A DNA stretch of 64,000 nt. Origin: Bacillales bacterium UBA5348. Its GTDB lineage: Bacteria; Bacillota_I; Bacilli_A; RF39; UBA660. The DNA lies in contig DHQC01000013.1 in assembly GCA_002411005.1 (NCBI GenBank), positions 68,586 to 132,585 on the forward strand, read 5' to 3'. The position numbers and the translations under genes are program-made. The notes under the pieces were generated by a model. It was not told where the DNA came from, did no database searches, and saw only the letters and a program-made list of their open reading frames with translations. Below are positions 5,003 to 50,175 of this stretch, one piece after another. Every line of letters starts with the position of its first letter. Position 1 is the stretch's first letter.

Positions 5003-5344
5003 GGGGCTGCTTGGTTTCGACGGGAACTATAAAGCTTAGATGGCAAGTCGTAGGCATGCGTTAAATCCATCAGTTTAATAACTGGAAATAATAAATTAGC
5101 ATTCGCTGCTTAATTAAGCATTAGCGAGCTCTTCTTATCGTTTTTCTCACGAAGGATATTAAGGGCACATTAAAGTGAGATATATCATTGTCTTGTTTGG
5201 GTGCAATGATGAAAATTACCAAACTAGTTAGTGATTGGTTGTTAATTTCTATAATTACTAATGAATTTAATAAATTAACTAAACTTGTAGAAGTCTCTGA
5301 AGTTATATTTTCGGACAGGGGTTCAATTCCCCTCAGCTCCACCA
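5003..5344 (+). ncRNA. ssrA: tmRNA (SsrA)
   Basis: 5' GGGGCTGCTTGGTTTCGACGGG and 3' GGACAGGGGTTCAATTCCCCTCAGCTCCACCA tRNA-like ends; internal tag reading frame ...GNNKLAFAA* (gga aat aat aaa tta gca ttc gct gct taa); immediately downstream of smpB. Confidence 0.9.
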
Positions 5345-39736: not shown

Positions 39737-39878
39737 TAATTGCTTTGGAAGAGGAATATAATATAGTTATATTCCTTTTTAATGTTGAAAAGAGATTAAA
39801 CTACATTTGATAAATCAATTACATTTCCTATATATCTTAAAAAGGGGGCGTTTATCACTGAATTTGATACATTTTAAT

Positions 39879-39982
39879 TGACAACCTCTATAATTTCTAG
39901 TAAAATTCAAGTTGGTACATTTATAAAAACCCCACATAGGTGGATTGCCGGGTCCGCTTATATGAATGGAAGGAGATAAAGA
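39879..39982 (+). promoter_or_regulatory. rplM promoter and 5' leader (possible L13 ribosomal-protein leader)
   Basis: ttgaca-17-taaaat promoter, then a structured ~75-nt leader (ccccacataggtgg...ccgggtccgc) before the rplM RBS. Confidence 0.35.
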
Positions 39983-40414
39983 ATGAGAACGTTCATGCAA
40001 AGAAAAGAAGATATAGCTCGAAACTGGTATGTAATTGATGCTAATGGACTTCCTTTGGGTCGTTTGGCATCAAAGGTTGCTCATACGTTACGAGGTAAAC
40101 ATAAAGCTGTTTTTACACCTCATGTTGATTGTGGTGATTTTGTCATTGTTATTAATGCTTCAAAAGTTAATTTAACAGGTTCAAAATTAGATAAGAAAAT
40201 TTACTATAATCATAGTGGATATCCTGGTGGCTTAAGAGAAAGAACTGCTAGAGTTATGAGAGATAAATATTCTACAGAAATGATTGAAAGAGCTGTAAAA
40301 GGAATGCTACCTAACGGTAGGCTTGGTAGACAAATGTATAAAAAATTATTTGTTTATGAAGATGAAAATCATCCTCATGTAGCCCAACAACCTGCAGTAT
40401 TAAATTTAAAGTAA
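39983..40414 (+). CDS. rplM: 50S ribosomal protein L13
   Basis: 143 aa; NWYVIDA..LGRLAS N-terminus. Confidence 0.9.
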
Positions 40415-40427
40415 GGAGATAAATATA

Positions 40428-40847
40428 ATGGTAGAAAAGAAAGTTTATATAGGTACTGGTCGTCGTAAGAGCTCAGTTGCTAGAGTAAGAATGACTCCTG
40501 GCAAAGGTAAAATTATAATTAATGGAAAAGATGTAAATGAATATTTACCTTTCCCAACATTAGTAATGGATTTGATGCAACCTTTAGAAGTTACTGGTAC
40601 AAGAGATCAATTTGATATCGAAGTAGATGCTTTTGGTGGTGGTTTTTCTGGTCAAGCAGGAGCAACTCGTTTAGGAATAGCTAGAGCATTAATGGATTTT
40701 GATAGTCCTAATGATGCAACTCGTGAAGATTCTTTTAGACGTATATTAAAAGCTCATGGTTTTATTACCAGAGATGCTCGTGTTAAAGAACGTAAAAAGT
40801 ACGGTTTGAAAAAAGCTCGTCGCGCACCTCAATTCTCAAAACGATAA
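40428..40847 (+). CDS. rpsI: 30S ribosomal protein S9
   Basis: 139 aa; C-terminal ...[12 protein letters not shown]. Confidence 0.9.
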
Positions 40848-40850
40848 TTT

Positions 40851-40877
40851 TAAGCACTTTAAGTGCTTTTTTTGTTT
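40851..40877 (+). terminator. rho-independent terminator after rpsI
   Basis: aagcactttaagtgctt hairpin + T7. Confidence 0.7.
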
Positions 40878-40921
40878 ACTAATAAATTTATATATTTCAT
40901 ATAATTATAATAGGTGATTTA

Positions 40922-41584
40922 GTGAAACAATATAAAGCATTAATTGTTATTTTTTTAATTATTTCTATATTTCTAATGAATAAAGTTAATGGTTATATAA
41001 ATGAGCTACCATTGTTAGGAAAAGTTATTTATATCGATCCTGGTCATGGTGGGGTAGACCCTGGTGCAAATTATAAAAACATCTTAGAGAAGGACATTAA
41101 TTTAGAAATAAGTAAAACATTATCAACGTTATTAATAGAAAAGGGTGCGATTGTTTATCTTACAAGAGAGGATGACTATGATTTGTCACCACCCCATGCT
41201 TATTTAAGAAAACGTAGTGATTTATCAAGGCGAGTTAAACTTATTAACGAGTCTTTGTGTGACGTTTATTTATCTATTCATTTAAACGCAACACTTTCAA
41301 CAACTTGGAGAGGTGCACAAGTCTTTTATGATGATGTCAACAACCAAAATATTATCCTTGGTGAAAAAATACAAGAAAGTTTCAAAAAAAATCTTGGTTC
41401 TAAACGAAAATTAAAAAGAATAAGCGATTTATATATGTATAAAGATGTTGATAGACCCGGGGTTTTATTAGAGGTGGGTTTTTTGTCGAATCAAAATGAG
41501 CGTTATATATTAAGAAAACCATATTATCAAAAGAGAATATCAAATGCTATTGTAGAGGGGTTAATTAGTTATTTTGATAAATAA
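40922..41584 (+). CDS. cwlD: N-acetylmuramoyl-L-alanine amidase CwlD-like (Amidase_3)
   Basis: 220 aa, N-terminal TM, IDPGHGGVDPGA motif; sits after rpsI exactly as cwlD does in Bacillus. Confidence 0.75.
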   Translation: MKQYKALIVIFLIISIFLMNKVNGYINELPLLGKVIYIDPGHGGVDPGANYKNILEKDINLEISKTLSTLLIEKGAIVYLTREDDYDLSPPHAYLRKRSDLSRRVKLINESLCDVYLSIHLNATLSTTWRGAQVFYDDVNNQNIILGEKIQESFKKNLGSKRKLKRISDLYMYKDVDRPGVLLEVGFLSNQNERYILRKPYYQKRISNAIVEGLISYFDK

Positions 41585-41613
41585 AAAGCGATTCCTTCTG
41601 GAACCGTTTTTGT

Positions 41614-42171
41614 TTATAGACCTTTTGCTTTATATTCTTTATATAAATCTAAAAATCTTTCGAAATGTATTATCTCCCTTTGCCTTAAAAAGGATAGTGG
41701 TGCAATGACATCGGGGTCGTTTGTAAGATTAATTAGATTCTCATATACAGCTCTTGCTTTTTGCTCTGCTGCCATATCTTCAACTATATCTGCAATAGGG
41801 TCGCCCGTTGTTGCAAAATAAGCTACTGTAAAAGGCACACCATTAGCATCTGTTGGGTAAATAGCATTTCCATGTTCAGCATAATGTGATCCTATTCCAG
41901 CTTCTTTTAGCTCCTCGGGGGTGGCACCTTTCATAAGTTGATAAGCCATAGCAGAAATCATTTCAACATGAGCTAATTCTTCAGTAGCTATATCGGTAAG
42001 CACAGCTTTTCCCTTTTCATTAGGCATTGTATATCTTTGATTTAGGTATCTTAGAGCAGCAGCTAATTCACCATTGCTGCCACCGTATTGAGTGATCAAA
42101 TACTTTGCCATCTTTAAATCCTTATTTCTAATATTTACTGGATATTCCAGTTTTTTTTCGTATTTCCACAT
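41614..42171 (-). CDS. cotJC: spore coat protein CotJC (manganese-catalase-like)
   Basis: 185 aa; ferritin-like Mn-catalase motifs (EELAHVEMI, HYAEHG). Confidence 0.8.
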   Translation of the reverse strand: MWKYEKKLEYPVNIRNKDLKMAKYLITQYGGSNGELAAALRYLNQRYTMPNEKGKAVLTDIATEELAHVEMISAMAYQLMKGATPEELKEAGIGSHYAEHGNAIYPTDANGVPFTVAYFATTGDPIADIVEDMAAEQKARAVYENLINLTNDPDVIAPLSFLRQREIIHFERFLDLYKEYKAKGL

Positions 42172-42172
42172 A

Positions 42173-42613
42173 TTAATTCACCTCCCATGGCCATGGGGAT
42201 GATATCCAAGCCCACGGATATGAATTTAATGTTTCACTTTCTAAAGAAAGTGGACCATATCTATTTTCATACTCGTTTCTTGTATTTTTGTATTGTGTCA
42301 TGCTTTGATTGAAGGCTCTTATTTTTTCCCCGTCCTGTGGATGGGTATCGAGATATAAACCTAAGTCAATCACTGAAAAATCGTATTCTCTAACTTTATT
42401 CAAAAGTGCTTCTCGTTCGTCTCTTGGATTTAAATTAAAAGGTTCCCCAGCTATATAAGGTTCGTATAAATCAGTAAATATATTTCCTCTAATAAATCCT
42501 TCGTAGGAATTAGTTATATTTGGACTATGTTGGTTACTAGTTGGAAGTAAATATTTATTTGTATTCCTTGGTATCAAATAGTCATTTTGATTATAATTTG
42601 AATAATTATACAT
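42173..42613 (-). CDS. fused CotJA-CotJB spore coat protein
   Basis: N-terminal EGFIRGNIFTDLYEPY (CotJA-like) and C-terminal FSVIDLGLYLDTHPQD (CotJB) in one 146-aa ORF directly upstream of cotJC. Confidence 0.6.
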   Translation of the reverse strand: MYNYSNYNQNDYLIPRNTNKYLLPTSNQHSPNITNSYEGFIRGNIFTDLYEPYIAGEPFNLNPRDEREALLNKVREYDFSVIDLGLYLDTHPQDGEKIRAFNQSMTQYKNTRNEYENRYGPLSLESETLNSYPWAWISSPWPWEVN

Positions 42614-42683
42614 TATAATCCTCCTTCAAATTATACTATGTTAATCATCCAAGTGTGAACATGGCAAATATCCTTCTTACAGT

Positions 42684-43658
42684 TTAAAAGCTGAAATAAC
42701 TGCCTGTTCCAAGTTTGCAATCACGTCCTGTCAAGTATGAAAGGTTGGGAAATACTTTATATAAAAATTTGATACTTTTTTGGTCAAGTAAAACCTTATC
42801 TACTTCGTTAATTATTTGTTCAGCTTTAGATAGCGCAATTGAATAAAGTTCTATAAAAGAATAATTATAAATATCGTTTTTATCTAGAGGGTGATACCAA
42901 TAGTCTTTGCTTAAGTTTAAATAATAATCATTATTATTTAGTTTAATATTATAGGAGATAACGTCCATTTTAACGTTAAACGGGAACACTTTCATTATCT
43001 TATAGGCACTTTTTTTAAAGCCTGTACGATCATTCCTGAAAATTGAATAAAATGTTTTCATTTGTTTAATAGTTGTTTTATATTTGTTTCCAATTGAATT
43101 CTCATCAAATGTCTTTTTAAAGACAATGTCAATTATTTCTATTAAATTATCGGATACGTTAGTATCTTGAAAACAAAACCGATGACTATTAAAATTATGT
43201 GGTTTAACCTTGCCTCTAACTAGCATAAAATAAGCATCTATATATGCTTCCATTTGATCGTGCCCTCCAAAATACTTATGGGTTGATTTCCTGTTTTTAT
43301 CAAAAATACCAGTTTTATAAAGAACCATAGGGTGAATGGTCATATCTAATACATAGTGAGCTATAAAACCATATAAAAATGCTCTTACTTCAGGATTATT
43401 ATGTAATTTTTTTTGTTTAATAGTATCAACTAAATTAACAAAGAATAATTGAGTTTTATTTTTTTGCATAAAATGTCCGAGTTCTCTAATTCTTTTTCCT
43501 CTCTTTAAATTCATAAGATTATAAAAAAAGAAAACATCAGGTCCTTGTGCAAACACCTTAAATTGTTCCTTAGCAGACTTTAATAGTTTTTGTTTATTAA
43601 CGTCGAAACGATCATATAAATCCATGCTGAAATAAGCATGTGTAATAGTACTAGGCAT
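42684..43658 (-). CDS. zinc-dependent phospholipase C / P1-nuclease-like fold protein (cytoplasmic)
   Basis: 324 aa; THAYFSMDLY near the N-terminus and FLYGFIAHYVLDMTIHPM resemble the Zn-PLC H/D metal ligands; no signal peptide. Confidence 0.4.
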   Translation of the reverse strand: MPSTITHAYFSMDLYDRFDVNKQKLLKSAKEQFKVFAQGPDVFFFYNLMNLKRGKRIRELGHFMQKNKTQLFFVNLVDTIKQKKLHNNPEVRAFLYGFIAHYVLDMTIHPMVLYKTGIFDKNRKSTHKYFGGHDQMEAYIDAYFMLVRGKVKPHNFNSHRFCFQDTNVSDNLIEIIDIVFKKTFDENSIGNKYKTTIKQMKTFYSIFRNDRTGFKKSAYKIMKVFPFNVKMDVISYNIKLNNNDYYLNLSKDYWYHPLDKNDIYNYSFIELYSIALSKAEQIINEVDKVLLDQKSIKFLYKVFPNLSYLTGRDCKLGTGSYFSF

Positions 43659-43748
43659 ATGACACTCCTTTTTACATTATACAATTATAACATAAATAAT
43701 ATTAAAAAAAGGCAGAATATATGTTATAATTTATAGTAGGTGAATGAC

Positions 43749-44681
43749 ATGATTAGAAAAAAAGTTTTTAAAAATTTAGATGAACAAATCGAAATTTTAC
43801 AAAGCAAAGGCCTGACAATTAACGATATAGAAAAAACAAAAGAAATTCTTCTTCGAGAAAATTATTTTTTTATAAGTGGTTATCGTTACATTTTTATGAA
43901 ATCAGTGAAAAATAAGGTTTTCTTAGATGGAACAACATTTGAGGAATTATATGCTTTTTTTACGTTCGATCGCAGCTTACGAAACATATTTTTTAAACAT
44001 TTATTAGTCGTAGAGAATAATTTAAAATCAATTTTTAGTTATCAACTATCTAAACAATATGGTATAAGAGAAAAAGACTATTTAAAAGCTTCAAATTTTA
44101 CAAAAGATATAACGAAAGCAAGGCAGGTCGCTGATGTTCTTCACAAAATGAAGAGACAAGTCAGGGTTAATGGCTCACAGCATTCAGCAACAAGACATTA
44201 TATGATAAATTATGGATATATTCCACTATGGATATTAGTTAAAGTTTTATCTTTTGGTATAATCGGCGAACTATATTGTATTTTAAAACCCGAAGATCAA
44301 CAGGTAATAGCTGATTATTATGATTTAGATGTAGAAAGTTTTATGATATTTTTGCCATTGCTTTCTAATTGTAGAAATTTATGTGCACATGAAGATATTC
44401 TATTTGATCATCGCACCCAAAGATCAATCCTTGATAATGAATATCATTTAAAACTTAAAATACCAATGGAAAATGATGAATATATTTATGGGAAAAACGA
44501 TTTGTTTGCTTATATCCTTATTTTTAAATCAATGTTAAGAGAAGAGGAATTTAGACACTTAGTATATGAAGTAGATTATGAGATAGCTAGATTAGATGGT
44601 AAGGTATCAGTTATCCCTGTTGAGAAAATCTTAAACAGGATAGGATTTCCTAATAATTGGCGTGAAATTGTAGATTTGTAA
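43749..44681 (+). CDS. Abi_2 (AbiD/AbiF-like) abortive-infection family protein
   Basis: ~310 aa; LDEQIEILQSKGLTI, NYFFISGYRY, FDRSLRNIFFKHLLVVENNLKSIFSY match the Abi_2/Abi-alpha family N-terminal signature; AGGTGA RBS. Confidence 0.7.
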   Translation: MIRKKVFKNLDEQIEILQSKGLTINDIEKTKEILLRENYFFISGYRYIFMKSVKNKVFLDGTTFEELYAFFTFDRSLRNIFFKHLLVVENNLKSIFSYQLSKQYGIREKDYLKASNFTKDITKARQVADVLHKMKRQVRVNGSQHSATRHYMINYGYIPLWILVKVLSFGIIGELYCILKPEDQQVIADYYDLDVESFMIFLPLLSNCRNLCAHEDILFDHRTQRSILDNEYHLKLKIPMENDEYIYGKNDLFAYILIFKSMLREEEFRHLVYEVDYEIARLDGKVSVIPVEKILNRIGFPNNWREIVDL

Positions 44682-47475: not shown

Positions 47476-47549
47476 GCAGATGTGGTTCAATGGTAGAATG
47501 CCACCTTGCCAAGGTGGAGACGCGGGTCCGATTCCCGTCATTTGCTCCA
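47476..47549 (+). tRNA. tRNA-Gly (anticodon GCC)
   Basis: GCAGATGTGGTTCAATGGTAGAATGCCACCTTGCCAAGGTGGAGACGCGGGTCCGATTCCCGTCATTTGCTCCA; 7-bp acceptor stem, anticodon loop cTTGCCAa, encoded CCA. Confidence 0.85.
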
Positions 47550-47550
47550 A

Positions 47551-47590
47551 ACGAAAGCAAACCCTTATAAAATAAGGGTTTTTTATCTTG
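47551..47590 (+). terminator. rho-independent terminator after tRNA-Gly
   Basis: aaacccttataaaataagggtttttt. Confidence 0.7.
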
Positions 47591-47600
47591 AAATGTTGTT

Positions 47601-47620
47601 TAGGTACTAACTAGGTACTA
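47601..47620 (+). repeat. tandem 9-mer taggtacta-ac-taggtacta (left-end subterminal repeat)
   Basis: seen directly; the same dimer recurs at 49993-50012. Confidence 0.7.
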
Positions 47621-47895
47621 TGTTCATCTTATTTCACTATATTTTTTGGTTGTATTTAACTATTTTTAAAGCAAATGTATGTATTTTGCACCACCTCATA
47701 TAATATGATGATTTAAATTTTCAAACCCCCTATTTTGCACCGAATGATGAATAGTCCTTAGAATACTAGACTTTTTTATTTTGTATGTTATATTTATGCT
47801 AAAAATTTGTAAAATAATCTTTAATTGATAATAATAAGGGTAGTATAAAACTACTCTTTAATAAAAATAAGAATAGAATAAGGTAGGTGAATAGA

Positions 47896-48453
47896 ATGAC
47901 AAACATTTTTAAATTAATTTACAAGAGGCTGAAAAAAATGTATAATAGAAATACAAGTATGCGTGAGGTGATAGGTGTGTTTGATGTTAAAGAATTAGCT
48001 TGTTACATAAAAAAACAATATTTTGACTTTGCAAGCGAGGAAATATCTCCAATTAAATTACAAAAATCTCTATATTTTCTTTTTGCATATTGGGGTGGCT
48101 TTGTTCAAAAAGGTATAAATAACCCAGATTTTTCTGAAGAAAAGTTTTCTGAGAACGATAGGTATTTATATAATGCGAGAATAGAAGCTTGGATTTATGG
48201 ACCAGTTATTCCAGATGTATATCGAGATATCAACCTAGATAGCCATTGTAATGATAATTTGTTTGATACTCGAGATGATATAAAAAAATATGTAGATGAT
48301 TTTTTGAGAGATACGTTTGAAGTGAGTGACTTTAAATTAGTAGAATCTGCGCATAATGATGAGGCCTGGAAAAGCAAATTTTCTCTTTCTAATGAATTTC
48401 ACAATAGAGAAATTGATAAAGAGGAACTTATAAACGAGTATGCACTTAAGTAA
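47896..48453 (+). CDS. Panacea-domain (DUF4065) protein, putative PanA/SocA-like antitoxin
   Basis: FDVKELACYIKK...ISPIKLQKSLYFLFAYWGG...IEAWIYGPVIPDVYRD matches the Panacea domain core (KLQKLLY ... AW..GPV...VY); ATG at 47896 after AGGTAGGTG. Confidence 0.65.
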   Translation: MTNIFKLIYKRLKKMYNRNTSMREVIGVFDVKELACYIKKQYFDFASEEISPIKLQKSLYFLFAYWGGFVQKGINNPDFSEEKFSENDRYLYNARIEAWIYGPVIPDVYRDINLDSHCNDNLFDTRDDIKKYVDDFLRDTFEVSDFKLVESAHNDEAWKSKFSLSNEFHNREIDKEELINEYALK

Positions 48454-48979
48454 TAGTATTTATTCTCATCAAAATCGCACAAAATTCGGTGGTCCCATTC
48501 AAGAAAGATTCGCTGAAAAAACAAAGAAGATAGACTTTACTTTCGCTTTGAGTTCGTTCAGATACCCAGAGGAATTTTTTACAAACTTTTCCAAAAGTGA
48601 TAATTTTGGTAGATTTCAGAAATTGAAGGGAATATATTTGGAAAACGAAGAGGGAAAGGACATATTAAAAAAATTTAGAAGACGCTATGTTGAAAATATT
48701 GATAAACATTATTTTGATAGAATAATAAGAATACTAAATTACCATAATAGATTTAATATCACAGAAGAGCAAGTAGTAAATATGTTAAAATGTAAATATA
48801 GGGAAGATCCTCGGATACAATTATTCATTATGAGCGATAATGGCGTTTCGAAAGTATATTTAGTTGATCTACACCACTTGGGATTTCCAGGAGATGCAGA
48901 TGGTCGTCGCTATGATATGAATGATATGTATAGAAAGTTTGAAAATGCAGAATACAATATTTCACATATATTAGATTAG
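48440..48979 (+). CDS. hypothetical protein overlapping the Panacea gene by 14 nt; candidate cognate toxin
   Basis: 179 aa, no TM, no recognisable domain; possible Rx4H (RILNYH) motif; translationally coupled arrangement. Confidence 0.4.
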   Translation: MHLSNSIYSHQNRTKFGGPIQERFAEKTKKIDFTFALSSFRYPEEFFTNFSKSDNFGRFQKLKGIYLENEEGKDILKKFRRRYVENIDKHYFDRIIRILNYHNRFNITEEQVVNMLKCKYREDPRIQLFIMSDNGVSKVYLVDLHHLGFPGDADGRRYDMNDMYRKFENAEYNISHILD

Positions 48980-49010
48980 ATATAATTAGTTAGCTAGTAT
49001 TTTTATTGTT

Positions 49011-49040
49011 GACAAGCATAAAATATAGAGTATAATAAGT
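49011..49040 (+). promoter_or_regulatory. near-consensus sigma-A promoter inside the islet
   Basis: ttgaca-17-tataat; a second extended -10 (tgtggtataat) ~49122-49134; AT-rich direct repeats (atgaaaatgta / atgtaaaaatgtg) lie between them. Confidence 0.5.
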
Positions 49041-49161
49041 GAAACCGCGTAACATATGAAAATGTACATAATTTTATATGTAAAAATGTGTAAAAAAGAG
49101 ATTTTTATTAATTTTTCGATTTTGTGGTATAATATAATTATAATAATAGGGAGGAATAACT

Positions 49162-49326
49162 ATGAAAGAAAAAAAGGACTTTGTTTCTTTACGCCTAGAA
49201 AAAGAAGAATTGGCTAAGAAACTACGTCCAAATATTAAAAAAGTAGATGAAAGTGATCCTCAACTTAGTATTATGCTAAAATCATTTGAGAAAGATGACT
49301 GCAAAGAATATAGAAAGCTTTTGTAG
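49162..49326 (+). CDS. small (54 aa) putative ribbon-helix-helix-like protein, candidate antitoxin
   Basis: MKEKKDFVSLRLEKEELAKKL...; GGGAGGAA RBS; not in the ORF track (under 60 aa); directly upstream of the MazF-like ORF. Confidence 0.4.
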   Translation: MKEKKDFVSLRLEKEELAKKLRPNIKKVDESDPQLSIMLKSFEKDDCKEYRKLL

Positions 49327-49336
49327 GAGGTTGTTT

Positions 49337-49810
49337 ATGCAAGTTGGACAAGTTATATTGATTAATAATATTGATAAAATAGGTGGCGCGCCACAAAAGT
49401 CTTCTATAAGACCTGCCATAATTAGGGAAATTTATGCACCAAATTTGATAGATGTTAGATTAGTATCAACTATCTATGTTAATGGCGATGTAAAAGCACA
49501 AAGTCTTGAAGAAGCCAGTGAAGCTATAAAAAATAATTTAAGAGGGCTTTTCCCACACTGCGAGCAATATATTATTATCACACCAGAGGAAAAAGGAATT
49601 TTGAACTTTAGTTATGTTTATGGAAATATGTATACCGACATAATAAACACCGATAAAACAGAAATTACTATTCTTAAAGATAGAAAAACAAATGTTCCTT
49701 TTGTAATAAGTAGCGATGTTAAGGCCAAGATAGAAGAAAAAGAAATAGAAGCAATGATAAAGGATATAATAAAGCAATATGATATAGAGTACAAAAAAAT
49801 AAACAGATAG
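49337..49810 (+). CDS. MazF/PemK-like (CcdB/MazF fold) protein with an internal insertion, candidate endoribonuclease toxin
   Basis: MQVGQVILINNIDKIGGAPQKSSIRPAIIREIY...IDVRLVST aligns with MazF's [29 protein letters not shown]...AIVAAIT. The C-terminus SSDVKAKIEEKEIEAMI aligns with MazF's DEMMDKVDEAL. AGGAGG RBS before the ATG at 49337. Confidence 0.5.
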   Translation: MQVGQVILINNIDKIGGAPQKSSIRPAIIREIYAPNLIDVRLVSTIYVNGDVKAQSLEEASEAIKNNLRGLFPHCEQYIIITPEEKGILNFSYVYGNMYTDIINTDKTEITILKDRKTNVPFVISSDVKAKIEEKEIEAMIKDIIKQYDIEYKKINR

Positions 49811-49835
49811 TGTCAACGAAGAATTTGATGAAAAC

Positions 49836-49866
49836 AAAAAAACAATGTTAGTATAGATTGTTTTTT
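49836..49866 (+). terminator. rho-independent terminator after the MazF-like gene
   Basis: aacaatgttagtatagattgtt + T8. Confidence 0.6.
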
Positions 49867-49922
49867 TTGATTTATAGGAATATCTCAATTATACCTCGAA
49901 CAATACATTAGGAGGTGGAATC

Positions 49923-49979
49923 ATGTTTGAATTAATTAGTGATGCAGAGTTGATGATATATATGTTAGAACTAGAATAA
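49923..49979 (+). other. 18-codon mini-ORF (MFELISDAELMIYMLELE) with a strong RBS, followed by a perfect 9-bp palindrome
   Basis: AGGAGGTGG 5 nt before the ATG; gaactagaa-taat-ttctagttc hairpin (49964-49985) overlaps the stop codon. Confidence 0.3.
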
Positions 49980-49992
49980 TTTCTAGTTCTTT

Positions 49993-50012
49993 TAGGTACT
50001 ATTTAGGTACTA
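49993..50012 (+). repeat. tandem 9-mer taggtacta-tt-taggtacta (right-end subterminal repeat)
   Basis: copy of the motif at 47601-47620, same orientation. Confidence 0.7.
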
Positions 50013-50116
50013 AAAAACAAGATTGATGCGTGTTGGTAAATTATAACGAGTAAGCAAACCTTTTAAAATCAACGTGTTAATGGTGGATAGTAGTGCGAAA
50101 TGATGTATCTTTAAAA

Positions 50117-50175
50117 TCCCGTCATTTGCTCCAAATGAAAGTAAGCCCTTATAAAATAAGGCTTTTTTATATTTG
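50117..50175 (+). repeat. direct repeat of the tRNA-Gly 3' end + terminator (attR-like)
   Basis: tcccgtcatttgctccaaatgaaagtaagcccttataaaataaggcttttttat versus tcccgtcatttgctccaaacgaaagcaaacccttataaaataagggttttttat at 47533. Confidence 0.75.

What the first reader, a model, noticed from the sequence alone, without database searches (positions are those of the whole stretch)
47601..50012. Matching tandem 9-mers (taggtacta-NN-taggtacta) just inside both ends of the islet
The dimer at 47601-47620 is repeated in the same orientation at 49993-50012. Each dimer has 11-bp periodicity, which places both half-sites on one face of the helix, as expected for a dimeric DNA-binding protein. Their subterminal positions, about 10 nt inside attL and about 100 nt inside attR, suggest arm-type integrase or excisionase binding sites, or partition/replication iterons of the element. 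I did not see the motif elsewhere in the window.
Basis: seen in the sequence. Interest (0 to 1): 0.5.

Follow-up and report, generated by a model that had tools for sequence, protein, structure and literature searches.

The report
Orphan phage integrase arm sites
The two matching repeat pairs are most likely the docking sites that a phage integrase uses on either side of its attachment site, left in a 2.6-kb prophage remnant at a tRNA-Gly gene that has lost the integrase; this is an ordinary feature of a well-known recombination system.

Summary
TAGGTACTA-NN-TAGGTACTA lies at 47601-47620 and 49993-50012 on the same strand. These are the only four exact copies in 64 kb, against 0.43 expected by chance.

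The same dimer occurs in temperate phages and prophages of uncultured low-GC Bacilli. In free phage genomes two dimers lie about 170-195 bp apart. They flank a core that resembles a tRNA 3' end plus a hairpin, next to a tyrosine integrase with an N-terminal arm-binding domain. In bacterial genomes the dimer lies 42 or about 52 nt after the 3' end of 11 different tRNA species.

Related integrases found without using the motif keep the same layout but use other 9-mers. Phage mv4 has the same published layout: a 215-bp attP with two pairs of adjacent 11-bp direct repeats at the arm ends. The islet's rebuilt attP is 212 bp.

No integrase or clear integrase remnant exists in the window. The islet carries a third, decayed att core and phage-derived cargo, so it is best read as a decayed prophage scar. 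A metagenome unitig suggests a precisely empty allele in the same sample. It is a new member of a known kind, of modest interest.

The parts
47476..47549 (+). tRNA-Gly(GCC), the integration target
   Evidence: ARAGORN and Rfam tRNA at 65.9 bits.
47533..47589 (+). attL core plus terminator hairpin (repeat copy 1). The first 19 nt, TCCCGTCATTTGCTCCAAA (47533-47551), are identical to copy 2 and are the candidate crossover region. The perfect 10-bp hairpin at 47559-47581 was probably brought in by the element.
   Evidence: Repeat family D2, the identity check and the terminator scan.
47601..47620 (+). Left (short-arm) dimer TAGGTACTA-AC-TAGGTACTA, a putative pair of arm-type integrase sites, 52 nt after the tRNA end.
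   Evidence: The same position relative to tRNA genes is seen in L022, L027, L046, L049, L051, L057, L069 and L083.
47677..47697 (-). Possible trace of an integrase C-terminus: EVVQNTY here against EMVQNTY in the L057 integrase remnant. The evidence is weak.
   Evidence: The tblastn hit has E = 2.6 over the window. The DNA similarity after the dimer is no better than shuffles give (108 of 1000 shuffles reach it).
47726..47782 (+). Third, decayed copy of the att core plus hairpin. It lies 105 nt after the left dimer, the same geometry as an attR long arm.
   Evidence: Repeat family D2 at 63% identity. The local alignment scores 24 to copy 2 and 19 to copy 1, against shuffles of 8.1 +/- 1.5, with 0 of 1000 shuffles reaching the observed score.
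47938..48453 (+). Cargo gene: SocA/Panacea-domain protein, a putative antitoxin.
   Evidence: Pfam PF13274 at E = 9e-5, below its cutoff. phrog_1281 at E = 9e-19. NCBIfam SocA at E = 1.8e-8, below its cutoff. A 37% identical homologue sits in related element L049.
48440..48979 (+). Cargo gene overlapping the Panacea gene, of unknown family; a candidate toxin partner.
   Evidence: No hit in any family library. A 27% identical homologue lies next to the Panacea homologue in L049.
49162..49810 (+). Two cargo ORFs of 54 aa and 157 aa, function unknown, behind a perfect consensus promoter at 49009-49036.
49923..49988 (+). Small phage-derived ORF (MFELISDAELMIYMLELE) followed by a 9-bp hairpin. It marks the right end of the former phage genome.
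   Evidence: It shows 76% DNA identity to phage L008 4116-4187. That stretch lies between the L008 lysis region and the cysteine-rich zinc-finger-like gene next to attP.
49993..50012 (+). Right (long-arm) dimer TAGGTACTA-TT-TAGGTACTA, a putative pair of arm-type integrase sites.
   Evidence: The equivalent dimer in phage attP (L004, L005, L008, L085) and in attR (L006, L039, L050, L052, L062) appears.
50013..50116 (+). 104-nt long-arm spacer between the dimer and the core. Its length is conserved in relatives (about 93-107 nt) but its sequence is not.
50117..50173 (+). attR core (a duplicated tRNA 3' end) plus what is probably the native terminator (repeat copy 2).
   Evidence: Repeat family D2 at 91% identity. 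The predicted empty-site junction uses this flank.

Best explanation
The two dimers are most likely the arm-type binding sites of a heterobivalent tyrosine integrase, that is, the sites bound by its N-terminal domain. The integrase belongs to a family of temperate phages of uncultured low-GC Bacilli.

In the free phage, the attP is about 190-215 bp long. It reads: dimer, then about 93-107 nt, then a core matching a tRNA 3' end, then a hairpin, then a second dimer. All four half-sites point the same way. Integrase molecules would hold an arm dimer with the N-terminal domain and the core with the core-binding and catalytic domains. This folds attP into the complex that recombines with the tRNA gene.

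Integration splits the site. The short-arm dimer ends up just after the tRNA (attL). The long-arm dimer ends up about 105 nt before the duplicated tRNA end (attR). This is the arrangement in the window.

Here the phage body, including the integrase, has been lost. What remains is a 2.6-kb scar holding both arms, a third decayed att core that points to an earlier tandem insertion, and a few phage-derived cargo genes. The sites in this window are therefore orphans. They could act only if a related integrase with tRNA-Gly(GCC) core specificity, and its directionality factor, were supplied by another phage.

Shown: the sequence layout, its conservation, and its association with tRNA ends and integrase genes. 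Inferred: binding by the integrase N-terminal domain, and the history of decay.
For: 1. The dimers exceed chance.
2. Phage contigs L004, L005 and L008 have two dimers 171-173 bp apart, and L085 has them 193 bp apart. They flank a tRNA-3'-like core plus hairpin and abut the 3' end of a tyrosine integrase gene.
3. L004 looks like a complete temperate phage, with lysis genes, an ImmA-like peptidase, an HTH repressor-like protein and an integrase.
4. Ten of 14 family integrases match the Arm DNA-binding domain PF14657, with a best E-value of 1.1e-7. The nearest solved structures include the Int proteins 6emy/6emz, which I recall to be Tn1549 Int.
5. Of 47 low-GC dimers in bacterial genome loci, 31 lie next to a tRNA 3' end, an integrase gene or the zinc-finger-like gene. 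Twenty-three follow a tRNA end (11 tRNA species), 16 adjoin an integrase gene and 5 adjoin the zinc-finger-like gene. By eye, most of the rest still show partial tRNA ends or attR geometry.
6. Integrase relatives retrieved without using the motif keep the architecture of two dimers with an 11-bp period. Their repeat sequences differ by lineage: TAGTATCTA, TACGTAATA, TATATACCA, TAGGTACAT, CGTGGCATTA, TTTACGGCCAA and ATGACATTA. This is expected for protein-binding sites that evolve together with a phage protein.
7. mv4 attP was defined experimentally as 215 bp with two pairs of adjacent 11-bp arm-binding sites in direct repeat at the arm ends. It targets a tRNA-Ser 3' end and uses a Tn916-family integrase (preprint 10.1101/2023.11.06.565760). 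The islet's rebuilt attP is 124 + 88 = 212 bp.
8. The islet's right end holds a small ORF conserved in phage L008. Its Panacea gene pair has homologues next to the att site of related element L049.
9. No integrase was found in the window.
Against: 1. There are no binding or recombination data for this family, so the assignment rests on position and analogy.
2. The PF14657 hit of the reference integrase (L004) scores 20.9 bits, just under the 22.3-bit cutoff.
3. N-terminal domain sequence and 9-mer do not track each other cleanly. L082 and L106 use TAGGTACTA but carry a divergent WYF-K motif.
4. By my reading, about 8 of the 47 dimers have no recognisable att context. In contig JAQVKM010000001, for example, dimers flank a tyrosyl-tRNA synthetase gene.
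5. No phage with this exact tRNA-Gly core was found in the viral or metagenome collections.
6. The integrase-remnant signal beside the left dimer is not significant.
Confidence: 0.8

Rival explanations
1. The sites are arm-type sites, but the islet is not a dead scar. It is an integrase-less element that is still moved in trans, the phage counterpart of a cis-mobilizable element or a minimal satellite. It would borrow the integrase of a co-resident or infecting phage of the same family to excise and integrate, carrying its toxin-antitoxin-like cargo.
For: All four half-sites are perfect, and both arms have the canonical geometry. Logan unitig L090 spans window 47522-50146. That is exactly the span of 31-mers specific to the occupied site if a precisely empty site co-occurs in the same sample. 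The islet is identical in 8 contigs. The arm 9-mer is shared by integrases only 35-40% identical to each other, so many phages could in principle recognise the arms.
Against: The empty allele could simply be a lineage that was never lysogenised. The unitig shows no break at the positions that a circular junction would produce. No second small islet of the same kind was found. The only other close pair of dimers flanks a housekeeping gene rather than a tRNA. No helper phage with a matching tRNA-Gly core was found. The third, decayed att copy points to decay.
Confidence: 0.15
2. The dimers are bound by a different phage protein rather than by the integrase. Candidates are an excisionase or directionality factor, or the conserved cysteine-rich zinc-finger-like protein (phrog_7566) that always sits on the other side of attP.
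For: A dimer lies directly upstream of the start of the zinc-finger-like gene in both gene arrangements. No canonical Xis gene was seen next to int in L004, so the directionality factor is unidentified.
Against: By established knowledge of lambda and L5, directionality factors bind one arm only, whereas these dimers lie on both arms in the same orientation. The orientation of the dimer relative to the zinc-finger-like gene flips between arrangements (L004 against L069). One dimer always abuts the integrase 3' end or lies near it. The layout equals the arm-binding pairs of mv4.
Confidence: 0.08
3. The dimers are iterons or partition sites of a replicating element.
For: Only the tandem direct-repeat form with a helical period supports this.
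Against: No replication or partition gene is present in the islet. There are only two half-sites per cluster. In related phages the dimers bracket attP, not a replication module.
Confidence: 0.02
4. The match is a chance repeat in AT-rich DNA.
For: Single 9-mers with one mismatch are at background frequency.
Against: Four exact copies occur against 0.43 expected, and no shuffle reached 4. The same 20-mer recurs at att sites in dozens of other genomes.
Confidence: 0.01

Closest known systems
Lactobacillus phage mv4 Int/attP (Tn916-family heterobivalent tyrosine integrase)
   Same: Both integrate at the 3' end of a tRNA gene. The mv4 attP is about 215 bp with two pairs of adjacent 11-bp arm-binding sites, all in direct repeat, one pair at the end of each arm. 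The islet's rebuilt attP is 212 bp with the same layout.
   Different: The arm-site and core sequences differ. I did not compare the family integrases with mv4 Int itself. They are at most about 34% identical to any integrase in the phage record collection. The hosts are uncultured Bacilli. No binding data exist here, and the window copy has lost its integrase.
Phage lambda attP arm-type sites (P1, P2, P'1-P'3), bound by the Int N-terminal domain (established knowledge)
   Same: The proposed mechanism is the same: a bivalent integrase bridges arm sites and the core. The arm sites are distinct in sequence from the core and lie on both arms, so they end up inside attL and attR after integration.
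   Different: Lambda has five arm sites in an uneven arrangement and does not target a tRNA gene. Here there are two symmetric pairs, all in one orientation.
Tn916 DR2 repeats and Tn916/Tn1549 integrases (established knowledge; PDB 6emy and related entries)
   Same: They belong to the same broad integrase group. An N-terminal domain recognises direct repeats near both ends of the integrated element.
   Different: Tn916 and Tn1549 are conjugative transposons with relaxed target choice. This family is phage-borne and tRNA-specific.
CIMEs (cis-mobilizable elements) of streptococcal ICE families
   Same: These elements have lost their integration and transfer genes but keep attL and attR, and they often lie in tandem arrays built by accretion at a tRNA or gene end (PMC5704250). 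The islet keeps both att arms, lacks int, and has an internal third att core.
   Different: CIMEs derive from ICEs or IMEs and move with a conjugative partner. This islet derives from a phage, and its mobility is untested.

Membership tests
Arm-type sites of a heterobivalent tyrosine integrase attP (lambda / Tn916 / mv4 type) | Repeated sites, different in sequence from the core, on both sides of the core. After integration they lie just inside attL and attR. | tested here: met
   Dimers lie 11 nt after the left att repeat and 104 nt before the right one. In free phage genomes the two dimers flank the core.
Arm-type sites of a heterobivalent tyrosine integrase attP (lambda / Tn916 / mv4 type) | A core of identity with the bacterial target, here a tRNA 3' end. 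| tested here: met
   19 nt are identical at 47533-47551 and 50117-50135, and they include the last 17 nt of tRNA-Gly.
Arm-type sites of a heterobivalent tyrosine integrase attP (lambda / Tn916 / mv4 type) | An element-encoded tyrosine integrase with an N-terminal arm-binding domain. | tested here: not met
   The window has no integrase or significant remnant (tblastn). The feature is met in the related phages: the integrase gene abuts a dimer, and 10 of 14 integrases carry PF14657. The window therefore holds orphan sites, not a complete module.
Arm-type sites of a heterobivalent tyrosine integrase attP (lambda / Tn916 / mv4 type) | mv4-type geometry: two pairs of adjacent 11-bp direct repeats at the ends of an attP of about 215 bp. 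| tested here: met
   The rebuilt attP is 212 bp, and L085 has dimer starts 193 bp apart.
Arm-type sites of a heterobivalent tyrosine integrase attP (lambda / Tn916 / mv4 type) | Physical binding of the integrase N-terminal domain to the repeats, and a requirement for them in recombination. | not testable with these tools
   This needs EMSA or footprinting and recombination assays.
Arm-type sites of a heterobivalent tyrosine integrase attP (lambda / Tn916 / mv4 type) | Site sequence varies between integrase lineages while the architecture is kept. | tested here: met
   Relatives found through the integrase alone have dimers in the same positions but with other 9-mers. Residue-level covariation with the N-terminal domain is only suggestive.
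CIME-like integrase-less element | Keeps attL and attR but has lost the integration and transfer genes. | tested here: met
.
CIME-like integrase-less element | Is mobilised through the recombination machinery of a related element. | tested here: inconclusive
   The unitig breakpoints fit a co-occurring, precisely empty site. No circular junction and no helper were found.
Iterons or partition sites | A cluster of repeats next to a rep or par gene, or at an origin. | tested here: not met
   No rep or par gene is present in the islet or beside the dimers in the related phages.

The most novel reading that the evidence does not exclude
The islet may be a live, integrase-less hitchhiker, a phage-derived counterpart of a CIME or a minimal satellite. 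It would carry a Panacea-type toxin-antitoxin-like cargo and excise and re-integrate at tRNA-Gly using only its two arm-site pairs and core. It could borrow the integrase of any passing phage of this family whose core specificity matches. The unusually conserved arm 9-mer, shared by integrases only 35-40% identical that between them target at least 11 tRNA species, would act as a common handle for such piracy.
Probability: 0.12. Interest if true: 0.55.

Novelty: new member of a known kind. Interest (0 to 1): 0.3.

Why it matters
The result explains the repeats as a standard part of phage site-specific recombination. It also defines an uncharacterised family of tRNA-targeting integrases in uncultured gut and fermentation Bacilli. 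The family's attP can be read directly from sequence: an invariant 20-nt arm motif plus a core taken from a tRNA end.

This has two practical uses. It helps delimit prophages and their scars in metagenome-assembled genomes. It also gives a set of natural integrases that share arm sites but differ in core specificity, which may interest people who engineer integrases. The orphan islet shows how att arms can outlive the integrase. It reveals no new mechanism.

Tried and rejected
1. Integrase or integrase remnant in the window. tblastn with two divergent family integrases and four C-terminal fragments found nothing significant. The 7-residue match EVVQNTY beside the left dimer has no DNA-level support. 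I report it only as a weak trace.
2. A parent or helper phage with the same tRNA-Gly core. A viral scan with the 17-nt core gave only chance hits inside unrelated genes. Scans for core plus flank and for dimer plus spacer plus core found nothing in the viral or metagenome collections.
3. An empty site through the exact downstream protein. All 5 contigs that carry that protein also carry the islet.
4. A second mini-islet. The only other close dimer pair lies 3.4 kb apart in JAQVKM010000001 (L070 and L016). It flanks a tyrosyl-tRNA synthetase gene, has an extra inverted dimer and is not at a tRNA, so it is not comparable.
5. Similarity between the two ~105-nt spacers after each dimer: none.
6. 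Clean covariation between integrase N-terminal residues and the 9-mer: suggestive only.
7. Known RNA families in the islet: only the tRNA.
8. Defence-system models for the cargo: nothing meaningful.
9. Matches with CA or GG spacers in GC-richer genomes (Sphingobacteriales, Acidobacteriota and others) are unrelated tandem repeats and were set aside.
Full report
**Observation**

TAGGTACTAACTAGGTACTA lies at 47601-47620 and TAGGTACTATTTAGGTACTA at 49993-50012. Both are on the + strand with an 11-bp period.

The four 9-mers are the only exact copies in the 64-kb window. Dinucleotide-preserving shuffles give 0.43 on average and never reach 4. The 20-nt dimer pattern has 2 matches against 0.11 expected, even with three mismatches allowed.

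tRNA-Gly(GCC) lies at 47476-47549. A 57-nt direct repeat, made of the last 17 nt of the tRNA plus a terminator hairpin, lies at 47533-47589 and 50117-50173 (91% identity). Its first 19 nt are identical in both copies.

The left dimer begins 11 nt after the left repeat, which is 52 nt after the tRNA end. The right dimer ends 104 nt before the right repeat.

**What the islet contains**

Between the repeats lie five ORFs:
- a SocA/Panacea-domain protein at 47938-48453 (phrog_1281);
- an overlapping 179-aa ORF of unknown family;
- two further ORFs of 54 and 157 aa, function unknown;
- an 18-codon ORF followed by a hairpin, directly before the right dimer.

There is no integrase. tblastn with two divergent integrases of the relevant family finds nothing anywhere in the window.

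**Related sequences**

I scanned IMG/VR for TAGGTACTANNTAGGTACTA and found 13 loci. Eight belong to low-GC phages. The other five have a GG spacer in GC-richer repeat DNA and are unrelated.

In L004, L005 and L008, two dimers lie 171-173 bp apart. Between them are about 93 nt of spacer, a sequence that looks like a tRNA 3' end, and a hairpin. The second dimer is followed within 6-19 nt by the 3' end of a tyrosine integrase gene on the opposite strand. The first dimer abuts the start of a conserved cysteine-rich (zinc-finger-like) gene, phrog_7566.

L004 has the gene content of a temperate phage, from putative lysis genes (read from the ORF translations) to an ImmA-like peptidase and an HTH (Cro/C1-type) repressor-like protein. 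Its integrase carries the Phage_integrase and SAM-like domains and a near-threshold Arm DNA-binding domain. Ten of 14 family integrases match that arm domain, with a best E-value of 1.1e-7. The nearest solved structures include the Int proteins 6emy/6emz, which I recall to be Tn1549 Int.

**Distribution in bacterial genomes**

The same scan over one genome per species gave 75 loci. About 47 dimers carry TT, AA or AT spacers in low-GC DNA. Nearly all of these come from uncultured 'Bacilli', Erysipelotrichaceae or Tenericutes MAGs from ruminant, rabbit and human guts.

Of these 47 dimers:
- 23 lie 35-70 nt after the 3' end of a tRNA gene on the same strand, covering 11 tRNA species;
- 16 lie next to a family integrase gene;
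- 5 lie next to the zinc-finger-like gene.

In all, 31 of the 47 meet at least one of these criteria. Most of the other 16 still show a partial tRNA end plus hairpin before the dimer. Others show a tRNA-3'-like core about 105 nt after it, which is attR geometry.

Two offsets occur. Most loci with the L004-type integrase have 42 nt between tRNA end and dimer. Loci with a second integrase subfamily have about 52 nt, and the window has 52 nt. That subfamily includes L012, L037, L052 and L085 and is 35-40% identical to L004.

L085 is a free attP of the 52-nt type. Its dimer starts are 193 bp apart, with a 104-nt long arm. Joining the window's attR and attL across the core gives 124 + 88 = 212 bp, with dimer starts 192 bp apart. 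This geometry is essentially that of L085.

**Independent test of the architecture**

I retrieved relatives through the integrase protein alone, without using the motif. The loci with enough downstream sequence often show two 11-bp-period dimers about 190-250 bp apart beside the integrase 3' end. Their repeat sequences differ:
- TAGTATCTA (L102/L116);
- TACGTAATA (L101);
- TATATACCA (L125);
- TAGGTACAT (L143);
- CGTGGCATTA (L163 and L171);
- TTTACGGCCAA (L142);
- ATGACATTA (L167).

A constant architecture with lineage-specific repeats is what one expects of sites bound by a phage-encoded protein. Residue-level covariation with the integrase N-terminal domain is only suggestive.

**Comparison with known systems**

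The mv4 study defines its attP experimentally (preprint 10.1101/2023.11.06.565760). That attP is 215 bp with two pairs of adjacent 11-bp arm-binding sites in direct repeat, one pair at the end of each arm. It targets the 3' end of a tRNA-Ser gene and uses a Tn916-family heterobivalent integrase. That is the arrangement seen here.

By established knowledge of lambda, L5 and Tn916, the integrase N-terminal domain binds such arm sites while the rest of the protein binds the core. Directionality factors bind one arm only. Dimers on both arms, in one orientation, with one pair abutting int, therefore point to integrase arm sites rather than Xis sites.

Iterons or partition sites are not supported. 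No rep or par gene is present here or beside the dimers in the related phages.

**What the islet is**

Its right end derives from a phage. The 18-codon ORF before the right dimer, with its ribosome-binding site, is 76% identical in DNA to a stretch of phage L008. That stretch lies between the L008 lysis region and the zinc-finger-like gene. The Panacea gene and its neighbour have homologues (37% and 27% identity) next to the att site of related element L049.

A third copy of the core plus hairpin lies at 47726-47782. It is clearly real, scoring 24 against 8.1 +/- 1.5 for shuffles. It sits 105 nt after the left dimer, mirroring the 104 nt between the right dimer and its core.

This suggests a history of more than one insertion at this tRNA, followed by deletions. 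ICE and IME researchers describe the same pattern as accretion and decay into CIMEs (PMC5704250).

A possible trace of an integrase C-terminus beside the left dimer (EVVQNTY) is not statistically supported.

**Is the islet still mobile?**

The islet is identical in eight contigs. One of them, a 2625-bp Logan unitig (L090), equals window 47522-50146 exactly. That is precisely the run of 31-mers specific to the occupied site if the same sample also holds a precisely empty site, meaning the tRNA followed by the right-hand flank. A circular junction would have broken the unitig at other positions, and it is not broken there.

So an exact presence/absence polymorphism at the 19-nt core is likely. 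This does not distinguish excision in trans from a lineage that was never lysogenised. No helper phage with this core was found.

**Verdict**

Direct binding remains untested.

The sites belong to a previously undescribed but mechanistically ordinary family of tRNA-targeting phage integrases. The window copy is an integrase-less remnant. I rate it a new member of a known kind, with modest interest. There is a small chance that the islet is a functional integrase-less hitchhiker.

Noticed in passing
window 47726-47782: A third, decayed copy of the att core plus hairpin lies inside the islet, 105 nt after the left dimer. It implies tandem insertion or accretion at this tRNA.
   Followed up: partly
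window 47938-48979; L049 1688-2770: A SocA/Panacea-domain gene overlaps a 179-aa gene of unknown family, which may form a toxin-antitoxin pair. The pair recurs (37% and 27% identity) next to the att site of a related element at a tRNA-Ser gene.
   Followed up: partly
L052 2516-3643; L069, L027 and L049 near their dimers: In some relatives the attP cassette is inverted relative to its flanking genes. The integrase lies on the + strand before the long-arm dimer, and the cysteine-rich zinc-finger-like gene lies on the + strand after the short-arm dimer. In L052 the integrase ORF reads into the dimer and stops at the TAG of the second half-site.
   Followed up: partly
L070 7789-7840 and L016 3268-3287 (contig JAQVKM010000001, positions 39789-43287): Two dimers lie in inverted orientation 12 nt apart, and a third lies 3.4 kb downstream. 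Together they flank a 587-aa ORF and a tyrosyl-tRNA synthetase gene, with no tRNA nearby. This context is unexplained.
   Followed up: partly
L090 (Logan SRR22315502), equal to window 47522-50146: The unitig ends fall exactly at the k=31 branch points expected if a precisely empty tRNA-Gly site co-occurs in the sample.
   Followed up: yes
L004 7643-8176 and L008 4181-4645, with homologues in L005, L006, L028, L077 and L085: A conserved cysteine-rich (zinc-finger-like) protein (phrog_7566, unknown function) always lies next to attP on the side opposite the integrase. It is a possible recombination accessory factor.
   Followed up: partly
L035, L040, L045, L046, L057, L063 and L083 near their dimers: Many genomes keep tRNA, hairpin and dimer followed by only a few codons of the integrase 3' end. 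The arm dimer commonly survives as a prophage scar.
   Followed up: partly
window 49009-49036: A perfect sigma-70 consensus promoter (TTGACA, 16 nt, TATAAT) lies upstream of the 54-aa and 157-aa cargo ORFs.
   Followed up: no
window 43740-44681: An Abi_2 (abortive-infection-like) gene lies about 3 kb upstream of the tRNA, in the conserved flank.
   Followed up: no
window 5003-5344: A tmRNA gene has the tag peptide GNNKLAFAA.
   Followed up: no
L019 and L053 (Sphingobacteriales MAG): Long tandem arrays of the 11-mer CATAGGTACTA contain the same 9-mer. They are unrelated to the phage att sites.
   Followed up: no
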